From Candidatus Nomurabacteria bacterium (GTDB taxonomy: Bacteria; Patescibacteriota; Minisyncoccia; Phycocordibacterales; UBA918), in contig CP060227.1 of the NCBI GenBank assembly GCA_023898525.1, positions 429,634 through 493,633 of the forward strand: 64,000 nt of DNA, read 5' to 3'. Position 1 is the stretch's first letter, and each line of letters opens with the position of its first letter. Shown piece by piece: positions 1,527 through 39,500 of this stretch. A program made the translations under genes and the position numbers. A model generated the notes under the pieces. That model was not told the origin of the DNA and did not search any database. It saw nothing but the letters and a program-made list of their open reading frames with translations.

Positions 1527-1561
<35 letters not shown>

Positions 1562-2128: not shown

Positions 2129-2174
<46 letters not shown>

Positions 2175-11219: not shown

Positions 11220-13307
11220 CTAGTTAGTGATTAGGTATGTATTAGTTTCAAAGTCTTCCTCTGGCAGAGTTGAATCTGTCTGAGTAGGTGTTGCAGCAGA
11301 AGTGTCGTTAAATCCAACTGAAAGGATTTGTGCACGGAACTGTCCGCTAGCTACTGGGTCGTAGGTAACTGTCAACTTAAGTTTTGCAGTATCACCTTCT
11401 GAGATGTGTACATAGTTTCCTTCAATAGTACCACCGCTTACGCGCTGTACAGATTGAGTAACTGTACCAGTTGCAACAGAGGCACCAGTATCATCTTCAA
11501 TTTCGTAAGCAATACCTACTGTAGATGAAGCATTTCGGGTTGCTGTAAGAGGAACCCAAGCATCCTCACCAAAAGCAGTGACCTCTAACTCTACTACGTA
11601 ACTACCGTAATTCTTAGTAGAGTCATTAGCATCAACTGTTTGTGTTGATGGTGACTTGTCGTCTGACATAATGGTATCAATTCCAGATGTTCGTAGTGTA
11701 TGAGTATCACCAGCAGCTGATCCTCGTAACTGATCTGGAGCTGTGTTGTCAAGATCATCTCCACCTTCTGCTACGTTAGCATCAGCGTTAGCTGAAGTAA
11801 CTTCAGCCATAACTGTAGTACCTTCTAGAGCTACAGCTAGAGAGTTGAACTTAAGCTTAAGCGCTGCTTCAACACGATCACCAGCATCAATAGTAACATC
11901 CTTATCAACATTGAAGTTCAATGTTGCTGTCGCTGTACCACCGTTGGTAACAGTAACATCATCGATAGTTGTACCGTCAATAACAAGTTCTGCATCGTCA
12001 ACGATAGTGTTGTAAGTTGTTGAACTAACAGCAACAGTTACGTAGATGTTATCAAGTGCAATATCATTTACAGAATCATCTGTGTCGAGGTCGAAGATAA
12101 ATACTTCGTACCAGTCTGAATCAGCATCATCCTCTACTTCAAAAGTAGTGCTTGTTGGATCATTAGCTGAAGTCTTTACGATAAGCTCGTCATCATTTCC
12201 AGCTTCCTCTAGTGTAAAGTTCTCATTAACACCAAAGTCTTGTCCTGAGTTCTCAGTTGTTGAAACATCGTCAGCATCGAAGAAGCGAAGTGCTTCCATT
12301 GAAACATTCCATGTAGTCAATTCAGCTGCATCAAGGTTGTTTTGAACTGATCCAGCTAGTACAACATCGAACCGATCGTCCTCTGCACCGAAGATATCAA
12401 GACCGCTGAAACGGAATGTTCCAAGATCCTCATCTAGGTAATCATCTTCATTATCAGCATCCTCCTCAGCCACTTTCTCACCATCTACCCATAGAGATAG
12501 AGTATCAAAAGCGTCCCAAGGCTTAACTGTGTTTGTGTTTGATTGACCATCAGCTAAAAGCTGTACATCAATACGACTGATCAAAGCGTCACCGTCTGTG
12601 AATTCTAACTCAAATTCAGCTAGCTCAGCATCCTCTGAACCCTCTTCGATAGTATCATCAGCAGCGCTGTTGATGTTGAAGGTGTCAAGTGAAGCCTCTC
12701 CTGAAAGAGTTGTATCCTCTTCCTCCTCCTCATCCATGTCTTCGTCTTCATCCATGTCTTCGTCTTCGTCATCCGCTACTGGAGGAACAACTACTGTGTT
12801 AAGAGCGTTAGCCTTATTGCGAGTAGATGGACCAAAGTATCCAGTTGGATTAACTAGACCAGCTGGAGAAAGAATCTCTGAGCGGTACTTAACTTGGAAC
12901 TTAGATACTGCAGCTGCTGTAGCAGGACCGTAGTATTCAGTTTCCATTCCAGCAGATCCTACAGAACCAGCTGCTGCTACGCGAGTATCAGGGTCAGCGT
13001 TTAGGAACTTCTGTAGCTCCATTACATCTGCACCTGTTGAACCTGTTGAAAGGTCACGAGTCCAAGTGAAACCACTAGCTGTAGTAGAACCACCTTGACC
13101 AACTTGTGCTTGCAAAGAAGCAATCTGTGCTAGTAAATCATTAATCATCTTTTGCAAGTCTTCAGCTGACTGTGCCTGCGCAGCAGGAGCGTAAGCTGAG
13201 AAGATCATTGCGAGTGCCACAAGAGCCACACCGGCCTTTGCAGCGATATCTTTTACAATAGTCATAAATATAATTAAATAATATTTTTGCGTGGGGTTAG
13301 CACGCAC
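11220..13307 (-). CDS. Large acidic secreted protein with N-terminal peptidoglycan-binding-like domain (start uncertain; possibly 13265)
   Basis: Signal-peptide-like AKAGVALVALAMIFSAYAPAAQA; a PG_binding_1-like segment (GADVMELQKFLNADPD...YGPATAAAVSKFQ); then a long D/E/T-rich region. Confidence 0.6.
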   Translation of the reverse strand: MRANPTQKYYLIIFMTIVKDIAAKAGVALVALAMIFSAYAPAAQAQSAEDLQKMINDLLAQIASLQAQVGQGGSTTASGFTWTRDLSTGSTGADVMELQKFLNADPDTRVAAAGSVGSAGMETEYYGPATAAAVSKFQVKYRSEILSPAGLVNPTGYFGPSTRNKANALNTVVVPPVADDEDEDMDEDEDMDEEEEEDTTLSGEASLDTFNINSAADDTIEEGSEDAELAEFELEFTDGDALISRIDVQLLADGQSNTNTVKPWDAFDTLSLWVDGEKVAEEDADNEDDYLDEDLGTFRFSGLDIFGAEDDRFDVVLAGSVQNNLDAAELTTWNVSMEALRFFDADDVSTTENSGQDFGVNENFTLEEAGNDDELIVKTSANDPTSTTFEVEDDADSDWYEVFIFDLDTDDSVNDIALDNIYVTVAVSSTTYNTIVDDAELVIDGTTIDDVTVTNGGTATATLNFNVDKDVTIDAGDRVEAALKLKFNSLAVALEGTTVMAEVTSANADANVAEGGDDLDNTAPDQLRGSAAGDTHTLRTSGIDTIMSDDKSPSTQTVDANDSTKNYGSYVVELEVTAFGEDAWVPLTATRNASSTVGIAYEIEDDTGASVATGTVTQSVQRVSGGTIEGNYVHISEGDTAKLKLTVTYDPVASGQFRAQILSVGFNDTSAATPTQTDSTLPEEDFETNTYLITN

Positions 13308-22976: not shown

Positions 22977-23909
22977 ATGTCACAAGAGCCAAAAACAAAA
23001 TCAATTAAAATCGTAGTGTTAATACTGATTGTCATTCTAGTTGCCCTAACAGGATATTTATTCCTAGAGAACAGCAAAAAGACTGACCAAATATTGGCTC
23101 TAAATACTGAGCGAGACGAGCTCCAGATATCGTTGGAAAAACTTGGTTTTGAGAAAACTCAAATCGAAAACACTGCCGAAGAGCTCACAAAAGAGTTGAC
23201 TCTGACCAAAGAAACGCTGCAAGAAACCGAAGACGATCTGAGACACGAAAAAAACAAAAATGATGATTTTGAAGATCAGATTCGCTCTATTTCCGGTACG
23301 GTAAAAGATTTGGATAAGCTTTCTAAGACCGATGAGGAACTACTACAAAAATATTCTCGTACTTATTTCTTGAATGAAAACTTCATCCCACTCAAATTAA
23401 AGCAAATTGACGATAAATACATATTGCCGGGTAAGAAGGACCAATATTTTCACGGTGATGCAATTGGGTTTTTAGAAGACTTGCTTGATGCCGCTAAAAG
23501 GGCCGGTCACGACATAAAAATAGTTTCAGCTTATCGGTCTTTTGACGAGCAACAGGATCTGAAGGGCCAATATACACAAGTCTACGGTAGCGGCTCAAAC
23601 GCTTTCTCAGCTGATCAAGGCTACTCGGAACACCAGCTCGGTACTACAGTAGATTTGACCGACGAATCTACCAACGGCACCTATCAGTCTTTTGGCGAAA
23701 CTGAAGCTTATAAATGGTTGGTGGACAACGCCTATCGCTACGGATTCATTCTCTCCTACCCTGAGAATAATGAGTTTTATATTTATGAACCATGGCATTG
23801 GCGCTTTGTCGGTACTGACCTAGCTGGCGACCTTCATCGCAAAAATGCCCAATTTTACGAATGGGACCAAAGAAAGATTGACGAGTATTTAATTAAGATT
23901 TTTGATTAA
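22977..23909 (+). CDS. Membrane-anchored D-alanyl-D-alanine carboxypeptidase (VanY / peptidase M15B-like) with coiled-coil linker
   Basis: SAYRSFDEQ, SEHQLGTTVDL and EPWHWRF motifs of the LAS metallopeptidase family; N-terminal TM. Confidence 0.75.
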   Translation: MSQEPKTKSIKIVVLILIVILVALTGYLFLENSKKTDQILALNTERDELQISLEKLGFEKTQIENTAEELTKELTLTKETLQETEDDLRHEKNKNDDFEDQIRSISGTVKDLDKLSKTDEELLQKYSRTYFLNENFIPLKLKQIDDKYILPGKKDQYFHGDAIGFLEDLLDAAKRAGHDIKIVSAYRSFDEQQDLKGQYTQVYGSGSNAFSADQGYSEHQLGTTVDLTDESTNGTYQSFGETEAYKWLVDNAYRYGFILSYPENNEFYIYEPWHWRFVGTDLAGDLHRKNAQFYEWDQRKIDEYLIKIFD

Positions 23910-23937
23910 GATTTAAAAAATGATCGGTCAGATAATG

Positions 23938-23972
23938 AAAGGCCGGTCGCTTCGCGACCGGCCTTTCTTTTC
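23938..23972 (+). terminator. Hairpin terminator (aaaggccggtcgc ttcg gcgaccggccttt)
   Basis: Perfect stem plus T-rich tail. Confidence 0.7.
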
Positions 23973-24079
23973 TTTCTAAAACCAACTTTGTCGCCCACAA
24001 ACTTGTACGCTATACTGCACCCAACCTGCAGCTCGGTACTGCATGTTCTTTTACAACTTACATACATAAAGGAGTAATT

Positions 24080-27000
24080 ATGACAACTCTTACTGTAATC
24101 CCTGATGGTACCATCAGAGAAGGACAGAGCGCTATTTTTACGATCGTTCTCTCTGAACCTTTAACCGAAAGTGTTTTCTTTAGAGCCTCAACCATTACCA
24201 GTGGCGGAGCCTCCACAGCCGACGGTGATTATGAAGGATTTACCGACCGTATCTATGAAATACCAGCTGGTAAAACTAGTCTACAAATTGCCGTGTCGAC
24301 CTACCAAGCCGGAACTATCAATGAAGGAGTCGAAGCGATTGGTTTATGGGTAGACGATGTCTCTCCATCAAACATCAGTATTACTGATAGCGGTGTTGGT
24401 AGCGGTCGAGCTTTCGTCACTATTTTGGACCCCGTAGAAATACGAGTTAAGAATACCAACGGCTACGAAGGTGGCCAGGTGGGATTTATCGTAGAAGCGG
24501 AAAGTCCAGTACCTCACGACACTACCGTGTACCTACAGGTACAAGGCACAACTACCGCTGGCATAGCTAGTAATTCATGGTGGGTACAGGGTGTAATCAA
24601 AGCTGGTCAGACAGCAACCACCGTCAACATTAATACTGTGGAAGATGGTCAAACTTATGACACCCGCATTAATGTCAAATTATTCTCGTACCACGAAGAC
24701 GTTATGATCTTGGATGATACCGCCTATGGTACGGTATACAATACGACACAAGTACAAACCATACCCATTCTTGATATTTTCGCTGGGGGCGATGTAAACG
24801 AAGGTGATACAACAGTCTCGTACGCGAGATTGTCGACAGCCACCGACCATGATGTGACTTTTAGGGTCTCAACTTGGCTCGGCGATATGTCAGGTGACGC
24901 CAACCGAAATCCAGATAGTCCTGACTACGTTTCGTTTGTGAATCGTTCATTCACTATCAGAGCGGGCCAAACTACGGTACCAATACCGGTACAAACACTG
25001 CAAAATGACGACCCGACCGACTGGGCACAAGAAGTGTTTAGTATTCGAGTCGAACCAAACAGTGTTTCAGGTGCTACCTTAGGCCAAAGTCGCGCGGACA
25101 TCGTAATACATGATGTAGCAATCACGACAACACCGGATAACCAAAATTTAGAAGATTTGAGTATCTATAAAAATCTAATAAATACTCTTGTCGCTAAAGA
25201 AGGTATCTCAAAAACGGCTGACATAATCGCCGCTAGCAACACACTTAAGAGCGCCGCCCAATCACTTGAAGCCAGAGAATTGTTGGCAGCCGGTGTTTGG
25301 GATGCAACTGGCTTGGGTGCCATTGGTGGGATAGAAACTTATCTTGACTACCTTAGCCTATTCCCTAGCACACTAGCATTCTTGATTCGGCCGGCTTACA
25401 AAGCCGCAACCGGCCTAGATTTGTTTGATTCCATAAATTACAGTGAACTGGTTAATATTCCAGGAGCAGTTGCTCCCAGTGGCATTATATTTACCGGAAA
25501 CCAAGTATTATATGAAGGCAAACAAATCATTACCGATAACGATAGAGTAAACTGGACAGCTGACCAAGCCCTAGCGATAGCGAATGGAGAGCTGACTGAG
25601 ATACTTAAGGCTGGAGATTATGTTGATGGGAGGTTGGTGATACATCAGCCTGTAATAGCTTTCGATAGCTCTGGAAATTTGGTTAAACATACGAGTTATC
25701 AAGGTCGCTATGATCCTGAAAGAACCTCTGTTATGTCTGGCTCAAAGACCGATAACGTTTCACATTATGATGAAAATGCACAAAGTTTTGATTGGAGTGG
25801 AAATGTAGCTGATACAGTTTATATAGTAGCTCCATTTGATGGTTATGTAGTTTATTCCACTGATACGTACGCTTCTAAAGAAGTGAGTAACGGTGGATTA
25901 GGCAACGTAATTACTTTGCGAGCTGAACAAAAAACCACAGACGGCAAGGATGTGTTTGTAACCTTTGCTCACATAAAGCAAGGTAGTATAACAAGCAACC
26001 TTATCACAACACCTAAGAACCCTCCCGAAACAGATACTTCAATACCAGTAAAAGCCGGTCAAGTGTTGGGTATCGTTGGTGACACCGGTGGTAATTGGCC
26101 AGTGCATCTGCATATGTTGGCAGGTAACAACACATCAACCTATGGCACTATGACGGCTAAAGCTGGGCTGCGTGAAGGTCAAGTCGACACCCCTCCAGTC
26201 TTCATGCTTTTTGAAGGGGCAAAAATAGCTACCCGTAGTGAATTAAACTCGGGTATACGCGAGCGAGGAGGCGACTTTAAGCAAGACATTGGTTTCCCTA
26301 TAGGTGACACAGATACTTCTAGTGGAGCCTACAGCGAAATCGGATTATCTAGTGATGAACCATTGGTAGCAAAAAATATAAGCTCTACTTTTACCAAAGG
26401 TGAATTCTACGAAATAAACCCTACCTTTTCTTCAACAGACTCAGGAGGCCAAGGCGGCGACTTTCCCACCCCAGACCCAATCTGGAACGGAACGGACACC
26501 GCCGAAACCAACGAGTACTGGCAGGACAAAGTTTCAGCCGTCAATGAATTTATCTACGCCGGTGGCGGTTATGATTTCATTCTCGCCTCTGGTGGAGATG
26601 ATGTAATTGACGGACAAGGTGATGGTGGACAAGTCAACCTCTTTGGTCCGGGAGCTATTCGCGCCAACTTCTCCGTCACTACTACAGGTGATGGTGGATA
26701 CCGAGTACATAGTATCGATGGTTCTTTTGGTACTGATAAGTACTACAATATCGACGGTATGTGGTTTGGTGGTTACGGCAATATCCCTGGAGCTTGGCAT
26801 AATATGAATGACTTAGTCATAAACACCTTTAATGATGGTGACGGTACTTTACCTTCAGTAGCCGATCCTTACGATGAGTTATTTGCCGGTACTTCAGGCG
26901 ATGATCTCATAATAGGTGGTACTGGTATTGATTGGTTTACCGCTACACCGGGGAATGACATTCTCTATGGTGGAGACGGAAAGAACGTCGACCAAAGCTG

Positions 27001-27205
27001 GAACCAGGTTAATTTCACCACCGCTCCCTTCTATGAAATGCAGTGGGGTTATGACATCGCCAGCGACTTGTTATTTTCTCGTCACCCTAACCTCGATCTT
27101 GATTCATACAACCGTGACATCACCGACTTCTGGTTTCAAGATGGTGGCTGGCACGGTCGAGCTGAACTTATTGGTCTAGCGTCTCCTGACTTTGTATTTG
27201 TGTAG
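24080..27205 (+). CDS. 1041-aa multidomain protein: three Calx-beta-like repeats, an M23 (LytM-type) peptidase domain, and C-terminal RTX-like Ca-binding repeats; no N-terminal signal peptide
   Basis: Calx-beta-like repeats span ~24080-25115 (ADGDYEGF, ATDHDVTF). The M23 domain spans ~25750-26150 (HYDEN ... GDTGGNWPVHLHM). GGxGxD-type repeats span ~26550-26960 (GGTGIDWFTATPGNDILYGGDGKN). Confidence 0.8.
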   Translation: MTTLTVIPDGTIREGQSAIFTIVLSEPLTESVFFRASTITSGGASTADGDYEGFTDRIYEIPAGKTSLQIAVSTYQAGTINEGVEAIGLWVDDVSPSNISITDSGVGSGRAFVTILDPVEIRVKNTNGYEGGQVGFIVEAESPVPHDTTVYLQVQGTTTAGIASNSWWVQGVIKAGQTATTVNINTVEDGQTYDTRINVKLFSYHEDVMILDDTAYGTVYNTTQVQTIPILDIFAGGDVNEGDTTVSYARLSTATDHDVTFRVSTWLGDMSGDANRNPDSPDYVSFVNRSFTIRAGQTTVPIPVQTLQNDDPTDWAQEVFSIRVEPNSVSGATLGQSRADIVIHDVAITTTPDNQNLEDLSIYKNLINTLVAKEGISKTADIIAASNTLKSAAQSLEARELLAAGVWDATGLGAIGGIETYLDYLSLFPSTLAFLIRPAYKAATGLDLFDSINYSELVNIPGAVAPSGIIFTGNQVLYEGKQIITDNDRVNWTADQALAIANGELTEILKAGDYVDGRLVIHQPVIAFDSSGNLVKHTSYQGRYDPERTSVMSGSKTDNVSHYDENAQSFDWSGNVADTVYIVAPFDGYVVYSTDTYASKEVSNGGLGNVITLRAEQKTTDGKDVFVTFAHIKQGSITSNLITTPKNPPETDTSIPVKAGQVLGIVGDTGGNWPVHLHMLAGNNTSTYGTMTAKAGLREGQVDTPPVFMLFEGAKIATRSELNSGIRERGGDFKQDIGFPIGDTDTSSGAYSEIGLSSDEPLVAKNISSTFTKGEFYEINPTFSSTDSGGQGGDFPTPDPIWNGTDTAETNEYWQDKVSAVNEFIYAGGGYDFILASGGDDVIDGQGDGGQVNLFGPGAIRANFSVTTTGDGGYRVHSIDGSFGTDKYYNIDGMWFGGYGNIPGAWHNMNDLVINTFNDGDGTLPSVADPYDELFAGTSGDDLIIGGTGIDWFTATPGNDILYGGDGKNVDQSWNQVNFTTAPFYEMQWGYDIASDLLFSRHPNLDLDSYNRDITDFWFQDGGWHGRAELIGLASPDFVFV

Positions 27206-27296
27206 TATTTGTTCTTTTTAACAGATCGCCTAGAAATTAGGCGATCTTTTCTTTTACCTAAGGCTGTGGTACGGTACGAACATGAAAAAGATTATA
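27008..27296 (+). repeat. Repeat copy 1 (~290 bp): last ~65 codons of the giant gene, its terminator hairpin, and the RBS/start of the next gene
   Basis: ~99% identical to 27953-28243 (3 mismatches seen by eye). Confidence 0.85.
27223..27255 (+). terminator. Terminator hairpin inside the repeat unit (agatcgcct agaaatt aggcgatct tttctttt)
   Basis: Perfect 9-bp stem plus T-run, 15 nt after the giant-gene stop. Identical copy at 28168-28200. Confidence 0.65.
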
Positions 27297-27953
27297 ATGA
27301 TAACTTTAGTAGCGGTTTTAGCGATAGCTGTATCAGCTTTTATAATATCAGATAATAATCAAGAGACTGAAGTAAATACTGTTGTATCAAACCCTGTTGA
27401 GGAGACTAAGTCTTCACAAAAGTCTACTTATACCAGCAATGAAATAGGTATTACTTTTACTTACGATAAAAGGTTTGGGCAGCCGAAATTTTTAGATTTT
27501 TCTAAATATTGTACAGAAATAAAAGCATCTGATGATAGAATTTGCCAAAATTTTCAAATTTTGTTTGGGGGAGATAATTCAAATCTAGCAGATGTAGCAA
27601 TTTTTGCTGTCAATAAAGTTCGCCTTGAAAGCAATGAGTTGAGTCAAATTGGGAAAGAGGGAGTGGCATTCCCTTGGCCACCAACAGAATCAATGTCAAT
27701 GGATGATGAATGTTTTGTTCCGGGAGTACCTAATTACTCCAATGGTAAATGTGAGTATGTTACAAAAAATAATATCCTTATGCGACACACTTATTTAGAT
27801 GTGCAAAACACAATAAATGATTTTCCTCGTTATGAATATAGTTTTTATGTACCAGATAAAGACTTAGGAGTTGTTATTTACACAAAGGAACATGACTCTG
27901 AAAACCATATTGACTTTATAGAAAGAATAACAGAAAGTCTGAGTTTGAATTAG
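27282..27953 (+). CDS. Cassette gene A: signal-anchored, Cys-containing secreted protein (candidate immunity protein)
   Basis: 223 aa starting MKKIIMITLVAVLAIAVSAF. Preceded by repeat copy 1; its stop is followed immediately by repeat copy 2. Confidence 0.6.
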   Translation: MKKIIMITLVAVLAIAVSAFIISDNNQETEVNTVVSNPVEETKSSQKSTYTSNEIGITFTYDKRFGQPKFLDFSKYCTEIKASDDRICQNFQILFGGDNSNLADVAIFAVNKVRLESNELSQIGKEGVAFPWPPTESMSMDDECFVPGVPNYSNGKCEYVTKNNILMRHTYLDVQNTINDFPRYEYSFYVPDKDLGVVIYTKEHDSENHIDFIERITESLSLN

Positions 27954-28243
27954 ATTTCACCACCGCTCCCTTCTCTGAAATACAGTGGGGTTATGACATC
28001 GCCAGCGACTTGTTATTTTCTCGTCACCCTAACCTCGATCTTGATTCATACAACCGTGACATCACCGACTTCTGGTTTCAAGATGGTGGGTGGCACGGTC
28101 GAGCTGAACTTATTGGTCTAGCGTCTCCTGACTTTGTGTTTGTGTAGTATTTGTTCTTTTTAACAGATCGCCTAGAAATTAGGCGATCTTTTCTTTTACC
28201 TAAGGCTGTGGTACGGTACGAACATGAAAAAGTTAATACTTAT
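27953..28243 (+). repeat. Repeat copy 2 (~290 bp); encodes an orphan start-less C-terminal fragment (...DFTTAPFSEIQWGYD...GLASPDFVFV*) in a frame different from gene A
   Basis: Near-identical to 27008-27296. Confidence 0.85.
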
Positions 28244-28907
28244 AATCTTAGGTATAGTTATGTTAGTGACGGCAGGACTTTTGCTAAACAACACGCAATA
28301 TCAGATACAAGACGACCTTGATTTATCAGAATCAACTTCTACTATTGGTGTACTCGGTATACCAAAACCACTGACCTTAGCTTCGTTGGAAGCTAGAGAG
28401 GACTGGAACCCAACCATGGAAATAGAAGGTATGGTTAGGGTGGAAGATGGAGTGGCGGAATTGTCGGATAAAGAGAAAAAAATTAAAAAGCATAATATTC
28501 ATTTTTCACAATTAAACGATAGTTTTGTTACCGTTCTCCACTACGACGATGATTTTGAAAGTGAGTTTTGTGCCAAAGAAATGATGAGTGACCTACCAAA
28601 CGTACCGCTCAAGTGTCCACGATATAAACCATCTGAATACAATGAATTTATTATTCTTTCCAAAGATACCGGTGAGGTACTACATAAGTATAGGCTTAGA
28701 GAGGGGTATTCGATGACTACAACTGCCGCTGTATTACTTGGCAGTACAATATCACCCGGTTTTGGTAGCGACGAAAACCTATATTTTCATATAGGCCGAA
28801 TAGACATGGTAGAGAGAGAAGAGACCATTACTTCATCATTTAGCTACACTCTTAACGTTGTTACCGGTGAAATAACATTGGGTTATGATAGTAAAAGTGT
28901 GCGGTAA
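28224..28907 (+). CDS. Cassette gene B: signal-anchored secreted protein (candidate immunity protein), unrelated in sequence to gene A
   Basis: 227 aa starting MKKLILIILGIVMLVTAGLLL. Same upstream repeat, RBS and start context as gene A. Confidence 0.6.
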   Translation: MKKLILIILGIVMLVTAGLLLNNTQYQIQDDLDLSESTSTIGVLGIPKPLTLASLEAREDWNPTMEIEGMVRVEDGVAELSDKEKKIKKHNIHFSQLNDSFVTVLHYDDDFESEFCAKEMMSDLPNVPLKCPRYKPSEYNEFIILSKDTGEVLHKYRLREGYSMTTTAAVLLGSTISPGFGSDENLYFHIGRIDMVEREETITSSFSYTLNVVTGEITLGYDSKSVR

Positions 28908-28984
28908 CTTTTTTGATAGAGTCGTTTGTTTTTCCTAAAAATGTGATGTGTTGCTGGGTATAAAAAGTGAAATGACACAGATGT

Positions 28985-29082
28985 CTACAACCGTGACATC
29001 ACCGACTTCTGGTTTCAGGATGGTGGCTGGCACGGTCGGGCTGATTTGATTGGTTTAGCTGATAGCACCTTTTTTGTGTAGT
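28985..29082 (+). repeat. Repeat copy 3 (degraded, ~100 bp, ~85% identity): orphan fragment ...YNRDITDFWFQDGGWHGRADLIGLADSTFFV*
   Basis: Aligned by eye to 27110-27205. Confidence 0.7.
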
Positions 29083-29156
29083 TTTGGTTATTTGTTGTGG
29101 TTCTTTAGCTGTCACTTTCGAGCAACAGATGATGACACTTTGCTAACAGATAATAA

Positions 29157-33938: not shown

Positions 33939-35948
33939 CTACTCTGCCTGTACTCGACCGTTACCCTCAGAAAAACCTAGTTCTTCCGAAAGATTATTGT
34001 CCAACTTAATAGCCCTAGCTTTGAGACCGACTTCGGTAAACCGATCAGTGGCCCGAAAGTCCTGAGCTTCCAGCAGTGTCAATGTTTTACCAATATGTGT
34101 CACACTTGGCAAGAGCTTGATTTGCATCTTGATTTGCTTTTGCTGATGAGCTGACATATTCCCAACCCTCCAGCTAATTTGTTTAGAAACTGGATTAAAT
34201 TCAATTTCACCATCACCACTAGTTCTCTCTGCCCAGCTTACATACTGAGGTAAAGCAGTAGTCACCACTCCGCCTGATATATCGTTAACCCCAGCAGTCG
34301 CGACTAGTGTAATAGTGTAGTCAGTTGTCTGCCCAGCCACTGGTGGGACGGGTCCACCGTCACCAAACGGACTACTAGTATGGTTTATTTCTCCGGCAAT
34401 TTGTATTTCTGAAGAATACTTAGCTTCAGCCACCGCTGTTCCAACTAGATTTTCATTGGCATTAGCTTCATTTACCCGCCTGGCAAAGACCTTCACCGAC
34501 AAATCAAACGAGCCAGTGCTCTGTCCCTTGTCCGGCTTCACGGTAAATGAAAACTTACGACTTTCTCCAGGTGGTACTTCTGTCAAAGATTTCATTCCAG
34601 CAATTTCCCAATTGATTTTTTTGGTCACTGAATCATAAAATCCGCTGGAAATATCCAAATTGTCATCGCGGATTAAGTTCCCTCGTGGCACCAACTCTAC
34701 CCGCATATCATACAAAGTCTCGTTCATAGTATTGGCTACAAGAACTTCAACATTAGCATCTGCACCAGCCGCCAACACAGCCGCTCCATCGCGATCACCA
34801 CCAATACCAACGGTCACATCTATGAAAGGATTCTCAATTGTGTACCCTACTTTAGTCTGCGTCAAAACAGAACTTAATTCAGTTTGATTATCTGATTTTG
34901 GCGTACCAGCTTTAAGCTGTATCTCAGCCGCCTCGCTAGCTAGTCCGGTGACTAAACCTTTAAAAGTAATTGTATAGACAGTGTCAGGAAGAACTTCATC
35001 TAGAAGCCAACTATTTTGACCATAGGTTGTCTGTGGTACCGCATTCAAAAAGGAGAAGCTGTTGGGATAGTCAGCGGTTATCAATACATCATGCATTGGA
35101 TTTATAGCGTTAGATAAAAGAGTCAAAGTTACTTCAAGCTCCTGTCCGGAAGAAATTTTCTCAACCGCTTCAGTCCGAATCACAATGGGAGAAGAGTTTA
35201 TTTTAACCATAACCGGTTCTGCGTTCTTGTAGAAAGTACCGTTGGAATTTTTTACCCGATATTCAATTGTTGCCTTTATTTCCTTGTCTTCATTTTCTTC
35301 ACCAAACATTATGACCTTGATTGGTTTATTAACCACTCCACCCGCTTCAATATCTTCAAGCGGCAAACGATCTTCATACAAGTCGCGATTACCTTCCTCA
35401 ACCGACTTTGTTCCTGGCGGATAATTTAGAATCAAGGTAGCTGATTCAATCGGAATGGAGTTTTGGTTGGTAATACCCACCTGAATCGGAACTGTATCGC
35501 CACCCGCCACTGAAAATGGCGCTTCAATAGAAATGCTGATATTGTTGGCTGATATTTGATTACCACCCAACAATATATAAATAGCGGAACCGATAACCGA
35601 CAGCAGCAAAACTCCCAAACTAAAAAGAAGAATGATGGTTCGGTAAGTTCGGTTTTTCTTAGGAGGAGGAACGACAACATCTTTATCATTTTGAATAATT
35701 GTATCGGAGATTTGTGAAACTATACTCTCAGACTCATTTGGTGGCAGTTGGGTCACTGGTGGATTGTCGTGTGTACTTATATTTTCTTTAGCCGGAATTT
35801 GACTTGCGACTTCACTTCCCCAACCCCGCTTAACATCGATTGATGTTTTAGTAAGATCATGCCTTTTTACACTTTTATCTTGCCAACCACGATCGTAAAG
35901 ACGCTTTCGTAGCTCGTCGATATTTTCCTGATCTTTAATTCCCGACAT
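33939..35948 (-). CDS. Large hypothetical membrane protein (cytoplasmic N-terminus, one TM, ~540-aa beta-rich extracellular region)
   Basis: 669 aa; TM TIILLFSLGVLLLSVIGSAIYILLGG. Confidence 0.5.
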   Translation of the reverse strand: MSGIKDQENIDELRKRLYDRGWQDKSVKRHDLTKTSIDVKRGWGSEVASQIPAKENISTHDNPPVTQLPPNESESIVSQISDTIIQNDKDVVVPPPKKNRTYRTIILLFSLGVLLLSVIGSAIYILLGGNQISANNISISIEAPFSVAGGDTVPIQVGITNQNSIPIESATLILNYPPGTKSVEEGNRDLYEDRLPLEDIEAGGVVNKPIKVIMFGEENEDKEIKATIEYRVKNSNGTFYKNAEPVMVKINSSPIVIRTEAVEKISSGQELEVTLTLLSNAINPMHDVLITADYPNSFSFLNAVPQTTYGQNSWLLDEVLPDTVYTITFKGLVTGLASEAAEIQLKAGTPKSDNQTELSSVLTQTKVGYTIENPFIDVTVGIGGDRDGAAVLAAGADANVEVLVANTMNETLYDMRVELVPRGNLIRDDNLDISSGFYDSVTKKINWEIAGMKSLTEVPPGESRKFSFTVKPDKGQSTGSFDLSVKVFARRVNEANANENLVGTAVAEAKYSSEIQIAGEINHTSSPFGDGGPVPPVAGQTTDYTITLVATAGVNDISGGVVTTALPQYVSWAERTSGDGEIEFNPVSKQISWRVGNMSAHQQKQIKMQIKLLPSVTHIGKTLTLLEAQDFRATDRFTEVGLKARAIKLDNNLSEELGFSEGNGRVQAE

Positions 35949-35982: not shown

Positions 35983-36561
35983 TTAGAGGTGGCTATTCGC
36001 AACTGCGTTGTCTATTAGTTTCTTCATTTTTTCAGCTGACAACTCAGATTCATATTCAGCCAAGGTACTGGCCGGGGCCACCTTGAAGTTTTTGGGAATA
36101 TCTTTTGAATCAACATAGCCAAGCTCGTCCAAAATCCTTAATTGCACCGCCAATTCCAGAAAGCTGCGCTTTTGACACTCACTAATCAAAAGACGCGAGG
36201 CACCAACACAGAAGTCAAAAAGTAAAGAGTGCGCCTCCTCACCATGGACAAACCGCCTTAAGGTCTTCATAAGCATGACCACACTACCACGAGCCTCACG
36301 ACTCTTAGCTGTAGCAAAATAGTTTGGCCCTGGAACAACACTACCGATTCGCCAACCTTGCTTACCTTTCACTAAAGAGACTCTGATTTGAGAAAACTCT
36401 TGCAAGGCCGGCCGCTGCTTCGACCGCTCTTCGCGCACACTACGGGCAGTAGCATAGAGCATGCCTGCCTCACGGGTAAAAAGCACAAATACCTTATCAG
36501 CGGTATTGTGCAAAAAACTACCGCAAACTATCGCCTCTGTGATGTAGGTTTGGTATGACAT
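35983..36561 (-). CDS. recO: DNA repair protein RecO-like
   Basis: N-terminal OB-fold pattern (TEAIVCGSF...VFVLFTREAGMLYATARSVRE), 192 aa; abuts ileS. Confidence 0.5.
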   Translation of the reverse strand: MSYQTYITEAIVCGSFLHNTADKVFVLFTREAGMLYATARSVREERSKQRPALQEFSQIRVSLVKGKQGWRIGSVVPGPNYFATAKSREARGSVVMLMKTLRRFVHGEEAHSLLFDFCVGASRLLISECQKRSFLELAVQLRILDELGYVDSKDIPKNFKVAPASTLAEYESELSAEKMKKLIDNAVANSHL

Positions 36562-39500
36562 TAAACCTTAACAATAGAAATTAGGTATGAATTATCACCA
36601 ATTTGGATTTCTTTTCCTTTGGTTGTGGTAAATGTGATTTCTTTCGCTCCAACCACTTTCTTGATTATATCTAGCTGTGCTTTTACCATCTCCTCACCAG
36701 CTGGTGATGTGGCTATGGTCAGAGTAATTACGTCCTGGGGCTTGAGACCAGACTCTTTACGCATATCCTGTATAACCCTAATCAATTCACGCGCCTCTCC
36801 CTCCTGTTTCAATTCGGTAGTAATATTAGTGTCGAGTACCACTACTTCAGACTGAGTTTCGTTGACTGTAACCGTCTTTACATTAACCTCGTCTGCAATC
36901 ACACTTAATAACTCTGAATCAACCGGTTTAGAGACCGACAAAGACGACAGTGGTTGTCGTACCTTTATTCCAGATCGTGTGCGCTGCTCCAAAGCCAAGG
37001 TCACTAATTCACGGGTAGTCCTCATACAATCAAGTAAAACTTCATTAACAGACCCGGTCTCTGGCCACTTAGCCAAGTGCACGCTCTCTGCCTCACTTTC
37101 ATCTCGCACTGCTCGGTATAGATATTCAGCGTAGAAAGGCATGGCCGGTGCCATTACCTTGGCTAATTCACGAAGGACATAGCGCAAGGTACCAAGCGCT
37201 AGCTTCTTGTCTTCCACATCCTCACCCTTGAGACGGTCACGTGAGCGGCGGAGATACCACACGGACAAATCATCAATAAAATCAGTAATTGGTCGCACGG
37301 CTTTATCGAGCTCATAAGCTTTGTAACCAGCAGTTGATTCGGCGATCAGTTGATTGAGGCGCGCCACGATCCAGCGATCTAAAACATTATTGGAATCGTG
37401 GCGCGGTTCGGAAGCCCCCCGGGCTTCCTCACCACCATCCGCAAACATTTCATACATCGCCAGTACATTATGAAGTCGTCCGATATTCTTCCGTTGTATT
37501 TCAAGCACGTCTTTTTCGGCGAAGCTCAAATCTTCACTATGCACTACCGGCGAAGACAAAAGATAATACCGCATCGAGTCTGCCCCCAAGCGACCCACGA
37601 GCTCCATCGGATCAGGATAGTTCTGCAATGACTTACTCATTTTCTTTCCATCCTCCGCCAAAACCAATCCGTTTACAATCACATTCTCATACGGCGACTT
37701 ACCAAAAAGCGCCACCCCTAAGACGAGCATGGAGTAAAACCACCCCCGAGTCTGATCTAGACCCTCAGCAATAAACTGCGCCGGGAAACGCTCTGCCTCG
37801 AACTTTTCCTTATTTTCAAACGGATAATGAAGCTGCCCATACGGCACCGACCCACTCTCAAACCAACAGTCAAAGACATCCGGCACTCGCTTTAATTCCT
37901 CCCCGTCTTCATACAACTTAATATCGTCGATATATGGTCGATGATAATCGAGTTCGTAGCTGTCGTTATGAGGAAATGGCACAAACGGCAAAGCTCTGAG
38001 CTCTGCGTTATTTAAGTCGTAGGTATTTTCCTCAATAATCTTTCCTAAAGTTTCAAAATCATCACCTTTGGCGACCGCTTGCAACATCTGCAAAGTCCCG
38101 TTATGAGAAACAAACAAAACATTCTTATCCTTATGCTTTGTTTCAATTTCATTCAACAATTCACCCGCTCGTCTTTTCACATCCGTCCAGTTTTCTCCTC
38201 CTTCTGGAGTTTTGGTCAAACGATCAGTTCCAGTCGTAAAAAAAGCGTGATATTCACTTACAGTCTTGCCATCAAATTCACCAAACCGTACTTCAAGCAA
38301 ACGTTCGTCCGCCACTAAAACCTCCTTAGACAAACCTAGTCCTTCCGCTACTTTCTCTGCCGTTTCTTTCGTGCGTTGTAGTGGAGAATAATAAATAAGA
38401 TCAATCTTTTCGGCTTTTAGTTTTTCTACCAACTCACTTACCTGCTCTTTACCTTTATCAGTAATACCATTCTCAACCGCCACATCCACATTTAAAGTCT
38501 CTTTGGTATTCAAAGCTGATTCAGCGTGACGGGTAATAAAGTATTTATTGCCACTTTTGGGCACAAATTCCTGCATCTCAGCCATGCTACCGAACACCTT
38601 ATATTCACCAGTCTTTTCATTTTTCCAGATCGGCAGTGGCGCACCCCAATAACGCTGCCTAGACACCGCCCAGTCGCGTGCCCCTTCCAGCCACTTGCCA
38701 AAGCGGTTTTGTCCGACATAATCCGGCACCCACTTCACTTTATTATTGGCGGCCACCAACTCATCTCTCATGTCAGTTACTTTCACAAACCACGATGTAG
38801 TCGCGTAATTTAAAAGCGGTGTGCTGTCGCGCCAACAATGCGGGTAACTGTGAGTGATATTTTCTTTCTTGAAAATCTTTCCAGCTGTTTGTAGGTGACG
38901 CAAGACTTCAATATCCGCATCCAAGTGCGACACCCGAGCTTCATCGTCATCTTTTGGCTTCACTAATTGCCCAGCAAAGTCAGTCACAAAATCCATAAAC
39001 CGCCCACCATAATCAACATGGTGTGCGATAGGAATATTATTTTCCTTAGCTACATTCATATCGTCCTCACCATAAGCCGGCGCCAAATGCACGACCCCAG
39101 TCCCCTCCTCACCAATTTCGACAAAATCCGCGTGGTAAATCTTCCAAGCTTTTTTTTCTTTTTCTTTCTCCTCATTAAAATCATCTATTCTTTTTGGGCC
39201 TCTAGGTGTTGCCCATAAATTTTCAAAGTAATTGAACGGTGGCTCGTATGACAGATCTAGCAAGTCTGAACCTTTCATTTCCTCTACCACCTCATAAGGC
39301 AAATCACCCAATTGAGCCAATCGACCTTTGGCTAAAATTACATTCTCGTATTTAATTTCCTTTTTTATTTCTCCATCAGCACCCACTCTGTCAGGAATAG
39401 TTGAGTTTAGAACAGAAACCTTCACATAATCCAACTCTTGATTGACCGCAATTGCCATATTACCTGGCAAAGTCCACGGGGTCGTCGTCCAAATCAAGAT

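What the first reader, a model, noticed from the sequence alone, without database searches (positions are those of the whole stretch)
24080..27205. 1041-aa protein combining Calx-beta-like repeats, M23 peptidase and RTX Ca-binding repeats, with no signal peptide
The domain order Calx-like x3, then M23 (HYDEN...VHLHM), then GGxGxD repeats suggests a T1SS-secreted, Ca-dependent peptidoglycan hydrolase. In a small-genome, possibly episymbiotic bacterium this could be a host-attack or attachment effector rather than a housekeeping autolysin.
Basis: partly seen in the sequence, partly recalled or inferred. Interest (0 to 1): 0.6.

Follow-up and report, generated by a model that had tools for sequence, protein, structure and literature searches.

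The report
Swappable cell-wall-cutting effector in CPR bacterium
A tiny-genome (CPR) bacterium encodes a large calcium-binding enzyme predicted to cut bacterial cell walls; its cutting module is swapped between strains, and a row of small membrane-anchored proteins that look like antidotes follows it, so it looks like a weapon rather than a housekeeping enzyme.

Summary
The ORF (24080-27205, +, 1041 aa) is real and identical to an unannotated hypothetical protein of a Candidatus Nomurabacteria MAG. All four observed elements hold up. There are three Calx-beta-like beta-sandwich modules, supported through relatives and fold but not by the window sequence alone. There is a divergent M23 peptidase domain with a complete active site (H562-x8-D571, H631, H676-x-H678). 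There are two short RTX blocks (Pfam 35.9 bits, above threshold). There is no signal peptide or TM segment, no Cys, and pI 4.2.

The T1SS and host-attack reading is only partly supported. The protein looks like a T1SS substrate, but no ABC/MFP/TolC gene lies in the 64-kb window or in seven related loci, and CPR bacteria are thought to lack an outer membrane.

In eight loci the gene is followed by 1-6 small N-terminally anchored paralogous ORFs found only in CPR. In four loci these are interleaved with orphan copies of the big gene's 3' end (window 27954-28251, 97% identical). Between strains the M23 domain is a swapped cassette: DNA identity runs about 90-95%, then 31-52%, then 90-95%, with sharp breakpoints and catalytic residues kept.

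Best reading: a polymorphic secreted peptidoglycan-hydrolase effector with an immunity-like gene array. All evidence is in silico.

The parts
23937..23967 (+). Strong intrinsic-terminator-like hairpin (14-bp stem, 10 GC) ending the upstream VanY gene. It isolates the target gene as its own transcription unit.
23988..24016 (+). Sigma-70-like promoter candidate (TTGTCG-17-TATACT), 64 nt upstream of the ATG. This is a consensus match only; promoter-like sites are not enriched over shuffles.
   Evidence: DNA homology between the L001 and L002 loci begins about 130 nt upstream of the ATG.
24080..27205 (+). The whole gene, encoding the 1041-aa Calx-like x3 / linker / M23 / RTX protein (H6779_01990).
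24080..24430 (+). Calx-beta-like beta-sandwich module 1 (aa 1-117).
24431..24766 (+). Calx-beta-like module 2 (aa 118-229). It is the most divergent module and lacks the DY motif.
24767..25117 (+). Calx-beta-like module 3 (aa 230-346).
25118..25714 (+). Family-specific linker (aa 347-545). It has a helical hairpin at aa ~357-398 (pLDDT ~75); the rest is modelled at low confidence. No homologs exist outside the family. It may be a latency or pro-region, which is inference only.
25715..26215 (+). Divergent M23 (LytM-type) zinc endopeptidase domain, aa 546-712. Putative Zn ligands are H562 (25763-25765), D571 (25790-25792) and H678 (26111-26113). Catalytic histidines are H631 (25970-25972) and H676 (26105-26107).
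   Evidence: motif definition from PMC9662197
25625..26449 (+). Approximate window equivalent (aa ~516-790) of the recombining variable cassette, covering M23 plus ~80 aa after it, as mapped between the P0002 and P0003 alleles.
   Evidence: register
26558..26638 (+). RTX block 1: three nonapeptides (AGGGYDFIL ASGGDDVID GQGDGGQVN).
26888..26995 (+). RTX block 2: four nonapeptides (GTSGDDLII GGTGIDWFT ATPGNDILY GGDGKNVDQ).
27012..27309 (+). Repeat copy 1. It comprises the last 194 nt of the gene (C-terminal tail ...YNRDITDFWFQDGGWHGRAELIGLASPDFVFV*), the stop codon, the terminator hairpin at 27223-27247 and the first 28 nt of ORF-A.
27282..27953 (+). ORF-A, 223 aa. It has an N-terminal membrane anchor (KD19 3.03) and 4 Cys, with no Pfam or PDB match. 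A distant homolog sits in the L010 array. Candidate immunity or partner protein.
27954..28251 (+). Repeat copy 2, 97% identical to copy 1. It carries an orphan 3' fragment at 27956-28147 (63 codons open to the stop, 2 aa changes, no start codon), an identical terminator at 28165-28189, and the start of ORF-B.
28224..28907 (+). ORF-B (H6779_02005), 227 aa, with an N-terminal membrane anchor (KD19 2.72) and 2 Cys. It belongs to a CPR-only family of 26 proteins found downstream of the big gene in 6 of the 8 loci with the gene. Candidate immunity protein.
28986..29081 (+). Orphan 3' fragment, copy 3. It has 31 codons plus a stop (YNRDITDFWFQDGGWHGRADLIGLADSTFFV*), and the reading frame is kept despite a 3-nt deletion.

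Best explanation
The gene encodes an exported, calcium-dependent M23 zinc endopeptidase that cleaves peptide cross-links of peptidoglycan. It is built like a polymorphic effector.

Anatomy. A conserved N-terminal stalk of three Calx-beta-like modules plus a helical linker carries a swappable M23 catalytic cassette. Two short RTX beta-roll blocks and a conserved ~60-residue C-terminal tail follow.

Proposed mechanism.
1. The protein is made without a signal peptide and stays loosely folded in the low-Ca cytoplasm.
2. It is exported through its C-terminal RTX and tail module by an ABC-type exporter encoded elsewhere in the genome. TolC would not be needed in an organism without an outer membrane.
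3. Outside the cell, Ca2+ folds the RTX and Calx modules.
4. The M23 site (Zn ligands H562, D571, H678; catalytic H631, H676) cuts the wall of a neighbouring bacterium, either a host or a rival CPR strain.
5. The small N-in/C-out membrane-anchored proteins encoded directly downstream (ORF-A, ORF-B) protect the producer's own wall by binding the enzyme, as immunity proteins do.
6. Strains exchange M23 cassettes and collect extra '3' end + small ORF' modules by homologous recombination. This leaves orphan 3' fragments behind.

Shown here: the domain identities, the intact catalytic motif set, the absence of a signal peptide or TM segment, the conserved gene linkage, the orphan repeats, the mosaic cassette with sharp breakpoints, and one case of module import between allele types.

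Inferred only: export and its route, Ca dependence, enzymatic activity and bond specificity, the target organism, and the immunity function.
For: M23 identity and active site. The family profile retrieves 678 proteins and 42/42 sampled are Pfam M23. A PDB profile search hits DipM, zoocin A and lysostaphin. Foldseek ranks 1-29 are LytM, EnpA, lysostaphin, Csd, ShyA and similar, plus two cyanophage virion entries. D571, H631, H676 and H678 are invariant in the 6-member alignment, and their equivalents are kept wherever the region is present in 14 members. H562-x8-D571 matches the commonest spacing among the nearest M23 relatives, 15/42 against 11/42 for HxxxD. The family is defined by H(x)nD with variable n (PMC9662197).

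Export-type features. RTX passes Pfam. There is no signal peptide or TM segment and no Cys, and the pI is 4.2, matching the 4.0-4.6 given for RTX proteases (PMC3034196). The nearest outside relatives include signal-peptide-less M23+RTX proteins ending ...DF[IV][LF], as this one ends ...DFVFV.

Effector-like evolution. P0002-P0005 have Calx regions 93-97% identical but M23 domains only 22-42% identical. P0002 and P0003 are 94% / 35% / 91% identical across N-terminus / M23 / C-terminus. At the DNA level identity is 85-98% up to codon ~480, 31-52% over codons ~490-745, and 90-95% afterwards. Catalytic residues are kept throughout.

Immunity-like arrays. In all 8 loci, 1-6 small ORFs follow the gene. 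All those of >=176 aa have an N-terminal anchor (KD19 2.2-3.4) and nearly all have 2 or 4 Cys. Most belong to one paralog family at 24-64% identity. That family has only 26 members, all from CPR where named.

Orphan fragments. Orphan 3' fragments occur in 4 loci. The L002 orphan is closer to the L001 allele (90.7% against 85.3% to its own gene), and the next small ORF is 92% identical to L001's first small ORF, so a module was imported as a unit.

Precedents. M23 effectors with immunity proteins exist in T6SS systems (PMC6833914). RTX bacteriocins are also known (PMC3034196).

Accessory nature. The gene has its own terminators and a promoter-like site. It lies in different neighbourhoods in different genomes.
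Against: No exporter genes (ABC, HlyD-type MFP, TolC) were found in the 64-kb window or beside the gene in the other loci. One strain group has an RND+MFP pair, which is not a T1SS.

I found no paper in the library attributing a T1SS to CPR bacteria.

The central AF2 model is poor (mean pLDDT 49), so active-site geometry was not verified in three dimensions.

The window sequence alone is below the Pfam M23 threshold.

Two family members (P0005, P0006) have F at the first-His position, and a few others have His at -3 instead, so not every allele need be active.

The variable domain is internal rather than C-terminal as in classical polymorphic toxins. The orphan fragments carry only the conserved tail, not alternative toxin domains.

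The protein is strongly acidic, whereas characterised M23 bacteriolysins are usually cationic (PMC9662197).

The small ORFs have no detectable homology to any known immunity protein, and no structure or complex prediction could be run for them.

The window (M23 allele 73% identical to P0002's) has a different first small ORF from P0002, so strict pairing of allele and neighbour is not perfect.
Confidence: 0.55

Rival explanations
1. Surface-retained attachment or feeding device. The protein stays on the CPR cell surface. The Calx-beta and RTX modules act as a Ca-stiffened adhesin stalk of the LapA type. The M23 domain opens the host wall locally at the episymbiotic contact site. The small anchored ORFs are docking or anchor proteins that hold it on the membrane rather than inhibitors.
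For: Calx-beta and RTX modules are typical of large adhesins, and weak LapA-domain Pfam hits occur in family members. The small ORFs are membrane-anchored with extracytoplasmic domains. One ORF-B member lies next to type IV pilus genes (L009). Peptidase and lysozyme homologues are reported as essential for epibiotic growth of a cultivated CPR strain (PMC12102498).
Against: An anchor function does not explain why strains accumulate up to six divergent paralogs. It does not explain why a '3' end + small ORF' module of another allele type is imported. It also does not explain why the M23 cassette in particular is hypervariable while the stalk is 93-97% conserved. The stalk is short, with three modules and ~7 RTX nonapeptides, compared with true RTX adhesins.
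Confidence: 0.2
2. Housekeeping autolysin. The M23 endopeptidase remodels the organism's own wall for growth or division, and the neighbouring VanY carboxypeptidase is part of the same wall-maintenance function.
For: VanY (PF02557, E=6e-33) lies directly upstream on the same strand. The organism has peptidoglycan-related genes: a PG_binding_1 protein and a Mur ligase in the related locus L003. Many M23 proteins are autolysins (PMC9662197).
Against: VanY is separated from the gene by a strong terminator and is not linked to it in any other locus. The family is very rare: about 10 full-length representatives among 1.84 billion, and 2 loci in 185,579 species genomes. It sits in variable neighbourhoods, lacks Sec targeting, and has a recombining hypervariable catalytic cassette. 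None of this fits a core housekeeping enzyme.
Confidence: 0.07
3. Catalytically inactive LytM-type factor. The M23-like domain only binds peptidoglycan or activates another hydrolase, as EnvC, NlpD and DipM do.
For: The best PDB sequence hit is DipM, a non-catalytic LytM domain. The Pfam score is below threshold. The canonical HxxxD motif is absent. Members P0005 and P0006 lack the first His.
Against: The window protein has every catalytic residue (H562, D571, H631, H676, H678). The H-x8-D spacing is the commonest among its closest bona fide M23 relatives and is within the documented family range, with n=7 in gp13 and n=12 in LasA. D, H and HxH stay invariant despite 22-42% identity between alleles, which argues for selection on catalysis.
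Confidence: 0.06
4. Phage-derived lysin or assembly artefact. The gene is a prophage tail or ejection-associated M23 lysin, or the repeats and mosaics are metagenome mis-assemblies of strain mixtures.
For: The top Foldseek hit is a cyanophage pre-ejectosome protein with an M23 domain. PDB profile hits include phage internal proteins. Several related contigs come from bulk metagenome assemblies.
Against: The protein has no PHROG match. Flanking genes are housekeeping (EF-P, SSB, S6, TatD, MetRS), with no phage genes nearby. The window belongs to a 1.09-Mb contig. The same orphan-repeat architecture appears independently in four assemblies.
Confidence: 0.02

Closest known systems
Uncharacterised proteobacterial M23-RTX proteins (for example Maritimibacter sp. 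MCB1338895.1, 'peptidoglycan DD-metalloendopeptidase family protein'; JGI 'Ca2+-binding RTX toxin-like protein')
   Same: They have an M23 domain of the H-x8-D subtype ('SHxGxLxxxxDF'), no signal peptide, RTX nonapeptides C-terminal to M23, and a C-terminus ending in an acidic residue followed by hydrophobics (...SADFIL...SMDFVL against ...SPDFVFV here).
   Different: They are short (345-560 aa) with M23 at the very N-terminus and no Calx-like stalk or helical linker. They come from diderm bacteria that normally have a T1SS. No downstream array of anchored small ORFs was seen in the two loci inspected. M23 identity is only about 20-30% (A4 pairwise identities).
Class III bacteriocins / bacteriolysins of the M23 family (lysostaphin, zoocin A, enterolysin A)
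   Same: They are secreted M23 zinc endopeptidases used to lyse related bacteria, with a self-protection gene next to the toxin gene. They match by sequence profile and fold (PMC9662197).
   Different: Those enzymes use Sec signal peptides and pro-peptides and have SH3b-type wall-targeting domains. They are cationic, and their immunity is enzymatic, through FemABX-like cross-bridge modification (my own knowledge of the field). Here there is no signal peptide, the accessory modules are RTX and Calx, the pI is 4.2, and the candidate immunity genes are small membrane-anchored proteins of unknown fold.
Polymorphic toxin systems with orphan modules (CDI CdiA-CT/CdiI, Rhs; RTX-linked polymorphic toxins)
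   Same: They combine a conserved delivery part with a variable toxic domain exchanged by recombination at sharp breakpoints. A small protective gene lies immediately downstream. Arrays of extra protective genes are each preceded by a fragment of the main gene.
   Different: The variable domain here is internal and always an M23 peptidase, not diverse C-terminal nucleases or deaminases. The orphan fragments carry only the conserved C-terminal tail, not alternative toxin tips. The target is extracellular (the cell wall). No T5, T6 or T7 machinery is involved.
T6SS peptidoglycan-hydrolase effector-immunity pairs, including Acinetobacter M23 'Tpe' effectors
   Same: An M23 peptidoglycan hydrolase is used as an antibacterial effector, with cognate immunity genes adjacent (PMC6833914). 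In T6SS systems generally, immunity proteins act in the compartment where the wall is, which is my own knowledge of the field.
   Different: Those effectors are delivered by T6SS in diderm bacteria and carry LysM or VgrG-associated domains. CPR bacteria have no T6SS as far as I know (not checked here), and this protein carries RTX and Calx modules instead.
T1SS-secreted RTX enzymes (serralysin-type proteases, RTX lipases) and RTX bacteriocins
   Same: An N-terminal or central hydrolase is followed by C-terminal RTX repeats and an uncleaved tail, with an acidic pI (4.0-4.6) and no signal peptide (PMC3034196).
   Different: No linked ABC, MFP or OMP genes were found. The organism probably lacks an outer membrane. 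There are only ~7 nonapeptides, split into two blocks.

Membership tests
Peptidase family M23 (Pfam PF01551 / MEROPS M23) | Significant match to the family profile | tested here: inconclusive
   The window protein alone scores 19.6 bits, below the 28.7 cutoff. However, 6/6 family members hit PF01551 and relative P0011 passes at 36.4 bits. The family profile retrieves 42/42 Pfam-M23 proteins.
Peptidase family M23 (Pfam PF01551 / MEROPS M23) | H(x)nD motif supplying two Zn ligands | tested here: met
   H562-x8-D571 ('SHYDENAQSFDW'). This spacing is the commonest among the nearest M23 relatives (15/42). The review gives n as variable, 7 in gp13 and 12 in LasA (PMC9662197).
Peptidase family M23 (Pfam PF01551 / MEROPS M23) | HxH motif, plus an additional catalytic His some 30 or more residues upstream | tested here: met
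   H676-L-H678 and H631. All are invariant in the 6-member alignment and present in every member that covers the region.
Peptidase family M23 (Pfam PF01551 / MEROPS M23) | M23 beta-sheet core fold | tested here: met
   Foldseek against the PDB gives LytM, EnpA, lysostaphin, Csd1-3, zoocin A, ShyA, DipM and EnvC among ranks 1-29, at E 1e-5 to 4e-3. Caveat: the model core has pLDDT of only 55-73.
Peptidase family M23 (Pfam PF01551 / MEROPS M23) | Zn-dependent peptidoglycan endopeptidase activity | not testable with these tools
   Requires biochemistry.
RTX repeat proteins (Pfam PF00353) | Tandem GGxGxDxUx nonapeptides reaching the curated threshold | tested here: met
   35.9 bits against a cutoff of 23, E=7e-9. 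There are 7 nonapeptides in two blocks. The region matches CyaA RTX in the PDB at E=5.5e-4. All 6 members are positive.
Type I secretion system substrates | No N-terminal signal peptide, RTX repeats near the C-terminus, an uncleaved C-terminal tail, and an acidic pI | tested here: met
   The tail ends ...SPDFVFV, resembling the tails of proteobacterial M23-RTX proteins. Feature list from PMC3034196.
Type I secretion system substrates | A cognate ABC exporter, membrane-fusion protein and outer-membrane channel, mostly in the same locus | tested here: not met
   None is present in the 64-kb window or next to the gene in L001-L003, L005, L007, L010 or L011. Diderm M23-RTX genes also lack linked T1SS genes.
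Calx-beta domain (Pfam PF03160) | Significant match to the family profile | tested here: inconclusive
   The window protein gets no hit at E<=1. Homologous modules in relatives pass: P0009 35.2, P0015 35.8 and the L005 protein 40.6 bits, against a cutoff of 27, and they align to the window modules. A 14-module profile against the PDB gives NCX1 CBD1 at E 0.1-0.9.
Calx-beta domain (Pfam PF03160) | Ig-like beta-sandwich fold resembling the NCX1 CBD domains | tested here: met
   The AF2 model shows three sandwiches at pLDDT 71. NCX1 structures rank 2-4 in Foldseek at E~1e-9, but complement MG and transglutaminase Ig-like domains score similarly, so the fold match is not specific.
Calx-beta domain (Pfam PF03160) | Ca2+ binding by acidic loop residues | not tested
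   Loop residues were not mapped, and the model confidence in the loops is low.
Polymorphic toxin / effector-immunity loci | Conserved delivery region plus a variable toxic domain exchanged by recombination | tested here: met
   The N-terminus is 93-97% identical against 22-42% for M23. The DNA breakpoints are sharp.
Polymorphic toxin / effector-immunity loci | A small cognate protective gene immediately downstream, and orphan modules carrying fragments of the main gene | tested here: met
   Small anchored ORFs follow the gene in 8/8 loci, and orphan 3' fragments occur in 4/8. One module import is documented, from an L001-type locus into L002. The protective function itself was not tested.
Polymorphic toxin / effector-immunity loci | The toxin domain forms the extreme C-terminus, and orphans carry alternative toxin tips | tested here: not met
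   The M23 cassette is internal (aa ~516-790). The C-terminal RTX and tail region is conserved (91% between P0002 and P0003), and the orphans contain only that tail.
M23 bacteriolysins (lysostaphin / zoocin A type) | Sec signal and pro-peptide, an SH3b-type wall-binding domain, and FemABX-like immunity | tested here: not met
   There is no signal peptide. No SH3 or other wall-binding Pfam domain is found in the protein. No FemABX-type gene is present in the window.

The most novel reading that the evidence does not exclude
This is the first effector-immunity ('polymorphic toxin'-style) system recognised in CPR/Patescibacteria. It would be a signal-peptide-less, RTX-tailed M23 peptidoglycan hydrolase exported by an outer-membrane-independent type-I-like route, with a catalytic cassette shuffled between strains. 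Its antidotes would form a new family of membrane-anchored inhibitors that strains collect in arrays by recombination at copies of the effector's 3' end. That would mean ultra-small episymbionts wage cell-wall warfare against each other, against their hosts, or both.
Probability: 0.4. Interest if true: 0.78.

Novelty: new variant of a known kind. Interest (0 to 1): 0.62.

Why it matters
How CPR/Patescibacteria interact with hosts and with each other is largely unknown. These bacteria make up a large share of bacterial diversity, have tiny genomes and mostly live as epibionts.

A rare accessory locus that combines four features gives a concrete hypothesis for antagonism in this group: an intact wall-cutting enzyme, a strain-swappable catalytic cassette, export-type features without a signal peptide, and arrays of CPR-specific membrane-anchored partner proteins.

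The hypothesis can be tested with standard assays: toxicity and rescue in E. coli, zymography, and binding.

The locus also raises the question of how an RTX-type protein is exported by a cell thought to lack an outer membrane. If the small proteins are inhibitors, they would be a new family of M23 inhibitors.

The domain composition itself (M23 + RTX) is not unprecedented. Similar but shorter proteins exist unstudied in Proteobacteria.

Tried and rejected
- Exact look-up of the window protein in the contig index: not on record.
- Profile search of the central region in the word-indexed database: no scored hits, so one capped search was wasted.
- N-terminal region profile (whole 350 aa) against the PDB: only obscurin noise.
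- NCBIfam on the protein: nothing meaningful.
- Single-sequence PDB search of the whole protein: nothing.
- PHROGs: no phage family for the protein or ORF-B, so a phage origin was rejected.
- Search for T1SS genes: negative in the window and in all related loci. The RND+MFP pair upstream in L001 and L010 was considered as a possible exporter. It was rejected as a conserved partner because it occurs in one strain group only (L001 and L010 share the same neighbourhood) and RND pumps are not protein exporters.
- VanY as a functional partner: rejected because of the intervening terminator and because the linkage is not conserved.
- Literature searches for T1SS, RTX or polymorphic toxins in CPR: no relevant report.
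- PDB searches for ORF-A and ORF-B: nothing.
- Checking diderm M23-RTX loci for adjacent T1SS genes to validate the class: none adjacent, so this neither supports nor refutes export by T1SS.
- The GTDB genome scan found only 2 loci and did not return the window's own genome, so the rest of the genome could not be examined.

Full report
OBSERVATION

The ORF at 24080-27205 (+) is real, starts with ATG and encodes 1041 aa. It is 100% identical to 'MAG: hypothetical protein H6779_01990 [Candidatus Nomurabacteria bacterium]' on a 1,087,875-bp contig, so the window comes from a small-genome CPR/Patescibacteria organism.

The surrounding genes are housekeeping: 23S rRNA, L7/L12, L10, L11, NusG, FtsK, RecA, EF-P, SSB, S6, TatD, and the Met-, Pro-, Ile- and Arg-tRNA synthetases, among others.

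The gene is its own transcription unit. A strong terminator follows the upstream VanY gene at 23937-23967, a promoter-like site lies at 23988-24016, and another terminator at 27223-27247 sits directly after the stop codon.

DOMAINS

RTX. Pfam HemolysinCabind scores 35.9 bits against a curated cutoff of 23. About seven nonapeptides lie in two blocks, aa 827-853 and 937-972. The region matches the CyaA RTX domain in the PDB at E=5.5e-4.

M23. On its own the window sequence scores only 19.6 bits against PF01551 (cutoff 28.7), and the alignment misses the first motif. The assignment is nevertheless solid, for these reasons.
- All six family members hit PF01551, and a more distant member passes the cutoff at 36.4 bits.
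- A profile of the central region searched exhaustively against 1.84 billion representatives finds 678 proteins. These match only the ~145 profile positions that correspond to the M23 core. All 42 of the 42 sampled are Pfam M23 proteins.
- The same profile against the PDB lists DipM, zoocin A, lysostaphin, Csd3 and ShyA.
- The AF2 model of this region is poor overall (mean pLDDT 49; 55-73 in the core). Even so, Foldseek ranks 1-29 are M23 structures apart from two cyanophage virion entries.

Active site. D571, H631, H676 and H678 are invariant in the six-member alignment, and their equivalents are kept in every one of 14 members that covers the region. The canonical HxxxD is absent. However, H562 lies nine residues before D571 ('SHYDENAQSFDW'). 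This H-x8-D spacing ('SHxGxLxxxxDF') is the commonest among the 42 nearest outside M23 proteins, at 15 against 11 with HxxxD. The M23 review defines the family by H(x)nD plus HxH with variable n, 12 in LasA and 7 in phage phi29 gp13 (PMC9662197). The catalytic set is therefore complete in the window protein. Two relatives (P0005, P0006) have Phe at the first-His position, and a few others have His at -3 instead.

Calx-beta. The window sequence gets no Pfam hit. The N-terminal 346 residues consist of three homologous ~115-aa modules. Equivalent modules in more distant family members pass the Calx-beta cutoff of 27 bits: P0009 at 35.2, P0015 at 35.8 and the L005 protein at 40.6. These align to the window modules. 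The AF2 model (pLDDT 71) shows three beta-sandwiches. NCX1, which contains the founding Calx-beta domains, ranks 2-4 in Foldseek at E~1e-9, but generic Ig-like tandem domains score similarly. A 14-module profile picks out NCX1 CBD1 three times among six weak PDB hits, aligned through the DY / G-x-T / E-x-F motifs. 'Calx-beta-like' is therefore justified at the superfamily level.

Signal peptide. There is none. The ORF is already maximal. The N-terminus (MTTLTV / MPILTV) is conserved in all homologs and runs directly into the first beta-strand. There is no TM segment and no cysteine, and the pI is 4.2.

Linker. The 200 residues between the Calx modules and M23 (aa 347-545) have no homologs outside the family and are modelled as a helical hairpin followed by low-confidence sequence.

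A 298-nt segment at 27012-27309 comprises the last 194 nt of the gene, its stop codon, the terminator and the first 28 nt of the next ORF. It recurs at 27954-28251 with 97% identity, and a third, more diverged copy lies around 28868-29093.

The second copy encodes an orphan C-terminal fragment of 63 codons, open to the stop, with only two amino-acid changes and no start codon. The third copy encodes 31 codons, and its reading frame is kept despite a 3-nt deletion.

Between the copies lie ORF-A (27282-27953, 223 aa) and ORF-B (28224-28907, 227 aa). They are only ~16% identical to each other even though their flanks are nearly identical.

The same architecture appears elsewhere.
- In every related locus recovered, the big gene is followed by one to six small ORFs. 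These loci are L001, L002, L003, L005, L007, L010 and L011; L006 duplicates L003's contig and L004 carries the same protein on a shorter contig.
- Every small ORF of 176 aa or more has a strongly hydrophobic N-terminal segment (Kyte-Doolittle 19-mer 2.2-3.4), too long for a typical cleaved signal. That implies an N-in/C-out membrane anchor.
- Nearly all have 2 or 4 cysteines.
- Most belong to one diversified paralog family with 24-64% pairwise identity.
- That family has only 26 members among 5.8 billion clusters. All are unannotated, and those with a source name come from CPR MAGs.
- It accompanies the big gene even where the big protein is only 34% identical to the window's (L005).
- L009 holds another member at a contig end, next to type IV pilus genes; whether a big gene lies upstream there cannot be seen.

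Orphan C-terminal fragments of the big gene occur in four loci: the window (two), L001, L002 and L007. In L002 the orphan resembles the L001 allele (90.7%) more than its own gene (85.3%). The small ORF that follows it is 92% identical to the first small ORF of L001. A '3' end + adjacent small ORF' module was therefore imported as a unit from another allele type.

MOSAIC ALLELES

Among P0002-P0005 the Calx region is 93-97% identical, while the M23 regions are only 22-42% identical. P0002 and P0003 are 94% identical upstream and 91% downstream of M23 but 35% identical within it.

At the DNA level, identity between these two genes is 85-98% from about -90 nt to codon ~480. It drops abruptly to 31-52% over codons ~490-745 and returns to 90-95% from codon ~755. 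The M23 domain is thus a cassette exchanged by recombination, and the catalytic residues are preserved in every allele.

Homology between the two loci ends about 130 nt upstream of the ATG, and the gene sits in a different neighbourhood in each lineage. It is therefore an accessory gene. It is also rare, with about ten full-length representatives and two loci among 185,579 species genomes.

INTERPRETATION

These features are the signature of effector-immunity (polymorphic-toxin-like) loci: a conserved scaffold, a hypervariable but catalytically intact enzymatic cassette, a small exported or anchored protein gene immediately downstream, arrays of divergent paralogs of that gene, and orphan fragments of the main gene marking module acquisition.

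I therefore read the protein as an exported M23 peptidoglycan endopeptidase used against other bacteria, with the small anchored proteins as candidate immunity proteins protecting the producer's own wall. The organism does make peptidoglycan-related proteins: VanY, a PG_binding_1 protein, and a Mur ligase in the related locus L003.

Precedents for the parts exist. M23 bacteriolysins such as lysostaphin and zoocin A are described in PMC9662197. M23 T6SS effectors with immunity genes are described in PMC6833914. RTX bacteriocins are described in PMC3034196.

The need for self-protection, and the exchange of modules among related strains, suggests that kin are targets. Attack on a host is not excluded.

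EXPORT

The protein has the hallmarks listed for T1SS substrates: C-terminal RTX repeats, an uncleaved tail, an acidic pI and no signal peptide (PMC3034196). Its nearest outside relatives include short, signal-less M23+RTX proteins from Proteobacteria, for example Maritimibacter. Their C-termini (...SADFIL...SMDFVL) resemble ...SPDFVFV here.

However, no ABC exporter, HlyD-type adaptor or TolC is encoded in the 64-kb window or beside the gene in any related locus. An RND+MFP pair upstream in one strain group (L001 and L010) is not a protein exporter and is not conserved.

Linked T1SS genes are also missing next to two diderm M23-RTX genes, so non-linkage is uninformative. Patescibacteria are proposed to lack an outer membrane (PMC12102498). 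The RTX review notes RTX proteins in Gram-positive genomes, some without any T1SS genes and one with HlyB- and HlyD-like genes only.

A TolC-less ABC route is thus plausible but unproven, and I could not read the rest of the genome.

ALTERNATIVES

- A surface-retained adhesin or feeding device, with the small ORFs as anchors, remains possible. It explains the arrays, the module import and the cassette hypervariability less well.
- A housekeeping autolysin is unlikely given the rarity, the variable context, the lack of Sec targeting and the recombining cassette. VanY is separated from the gene by a terminator and is not linked to it elsewhere.
- An inactive LytM-type regulator is unlikely for the window allele, because all catalytic residues are present and conserved.
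- A phage origin is not supported: there is no PHROG hit and the flanks are housekeeping genes.
- An assembly artefact is unlikely, because the same architecture recurs in four independent assemblies and the window lies on a 1.09-Mb contig.

LIMITS

Everything is computational. The central structural model is of low confidence, so active-site geometry is inferred from motifs. No structure or complex prediction was possible for the small ORFs. Activity, Ca dependence, export, target and immunity are all inferences.

VERDICT

The locus is best described as a new variant of a known kind, a polymorphic M23 peptidoglycan-hydrolase effector with an immunity-like array, in a lineage where I found no description of such systems in the searched literature.

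Noticed in passing
window 36561-40226 (-): The 1221-aa isoleucyl-tRNA synthetase ORF carries a histidine-phosphatase domain (PF00300 His_Phos_1, E=1e-32) at aa 562-730, inside the class-I catalytic domain region. This looks like an unusual insertion or fusion.
   Followed up: no
window 1-2760 (-): The 23S rRNA gene is cut by the window start. 2760 nt cover only model positions 1-2075, which leaves about 685 nt of extra sequence. That suggests an insertion or intervening sequence of the kind reported for CPR rRNAs (the latter from my own knowledge).
   Followed up: no
window 6470-6931 (-) and 10383-11135 (-): Two IS200-like Y1 transposase ORFs (PF01797, E=9e-35 and 1e-9) lie in the window, and an rve-integrase ORF lies at 50285-51217. 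Mobile elements are therefore present in an otherwise housekeeping region.
   Followed up: no
L001 2659-7300 (-) and L010 1-3945 (-): An RND transporter (ACR_tran, 1032 aa) and a CzcB/YknX-type membrane-fusion protein (513-515 aa) are transcribed divergently, immediately upstream of the big M23-RTX gene, in one strain group. The pair is not present in the window or in other lineages.
   Followed up: partly
L009 412-6643: An ORF-B family member and a second small ORF sit directly upstream of type IV pilus / T2SS-like genes (T2SSE ATPase, T2SSF, an N_methyl pilin-like protein) at the start of a contig. This may hint at a link to surface or contact machinery, or it may be coincidence.
   Followed up: no
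L002 10100-10345: The orphan fragment in L002 begins 'GVWFDG|QSDDP...'. It joins the end of the first RTX-associated module directly to the second RTX block. That implies an internal deletion by recombination between the two repeated C-terminal modules.
   Followed up: partly
window 22977-23909 (+): The upstream VanY-type D-Ala-D-Ala carboxypeptidase (310 aa) has an N-terminal ~125-aa region with weak PHROG matches to Sie-like and Rz-like spanin families, and a catalytic part matching phage tape-measure and endolysin families. It is followed by a very strong terminator.
   Followed up: no
window 11220-13307 (-) and 33939-35948 (-): Two other large probable surface or wall proteins are present: a 695-aa protein with a PG_binding_1 domain and a 669-aa protein with DUF11 and CARDB domains.
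   Followed up: no
window 28860-28907 vs 27030-27060: The last codons of ORF-B (...VTGEITLGYDSKSVR*) align at the DNA level with the big gene's '...FYEMQWGYDIASD' segment. Homologs of ORF-B in L002 end at '...VTGEITLE*'. The ORF-B 3' end therefore seems to be a recombination junction with the third orphan copy.
   Followed up: partly
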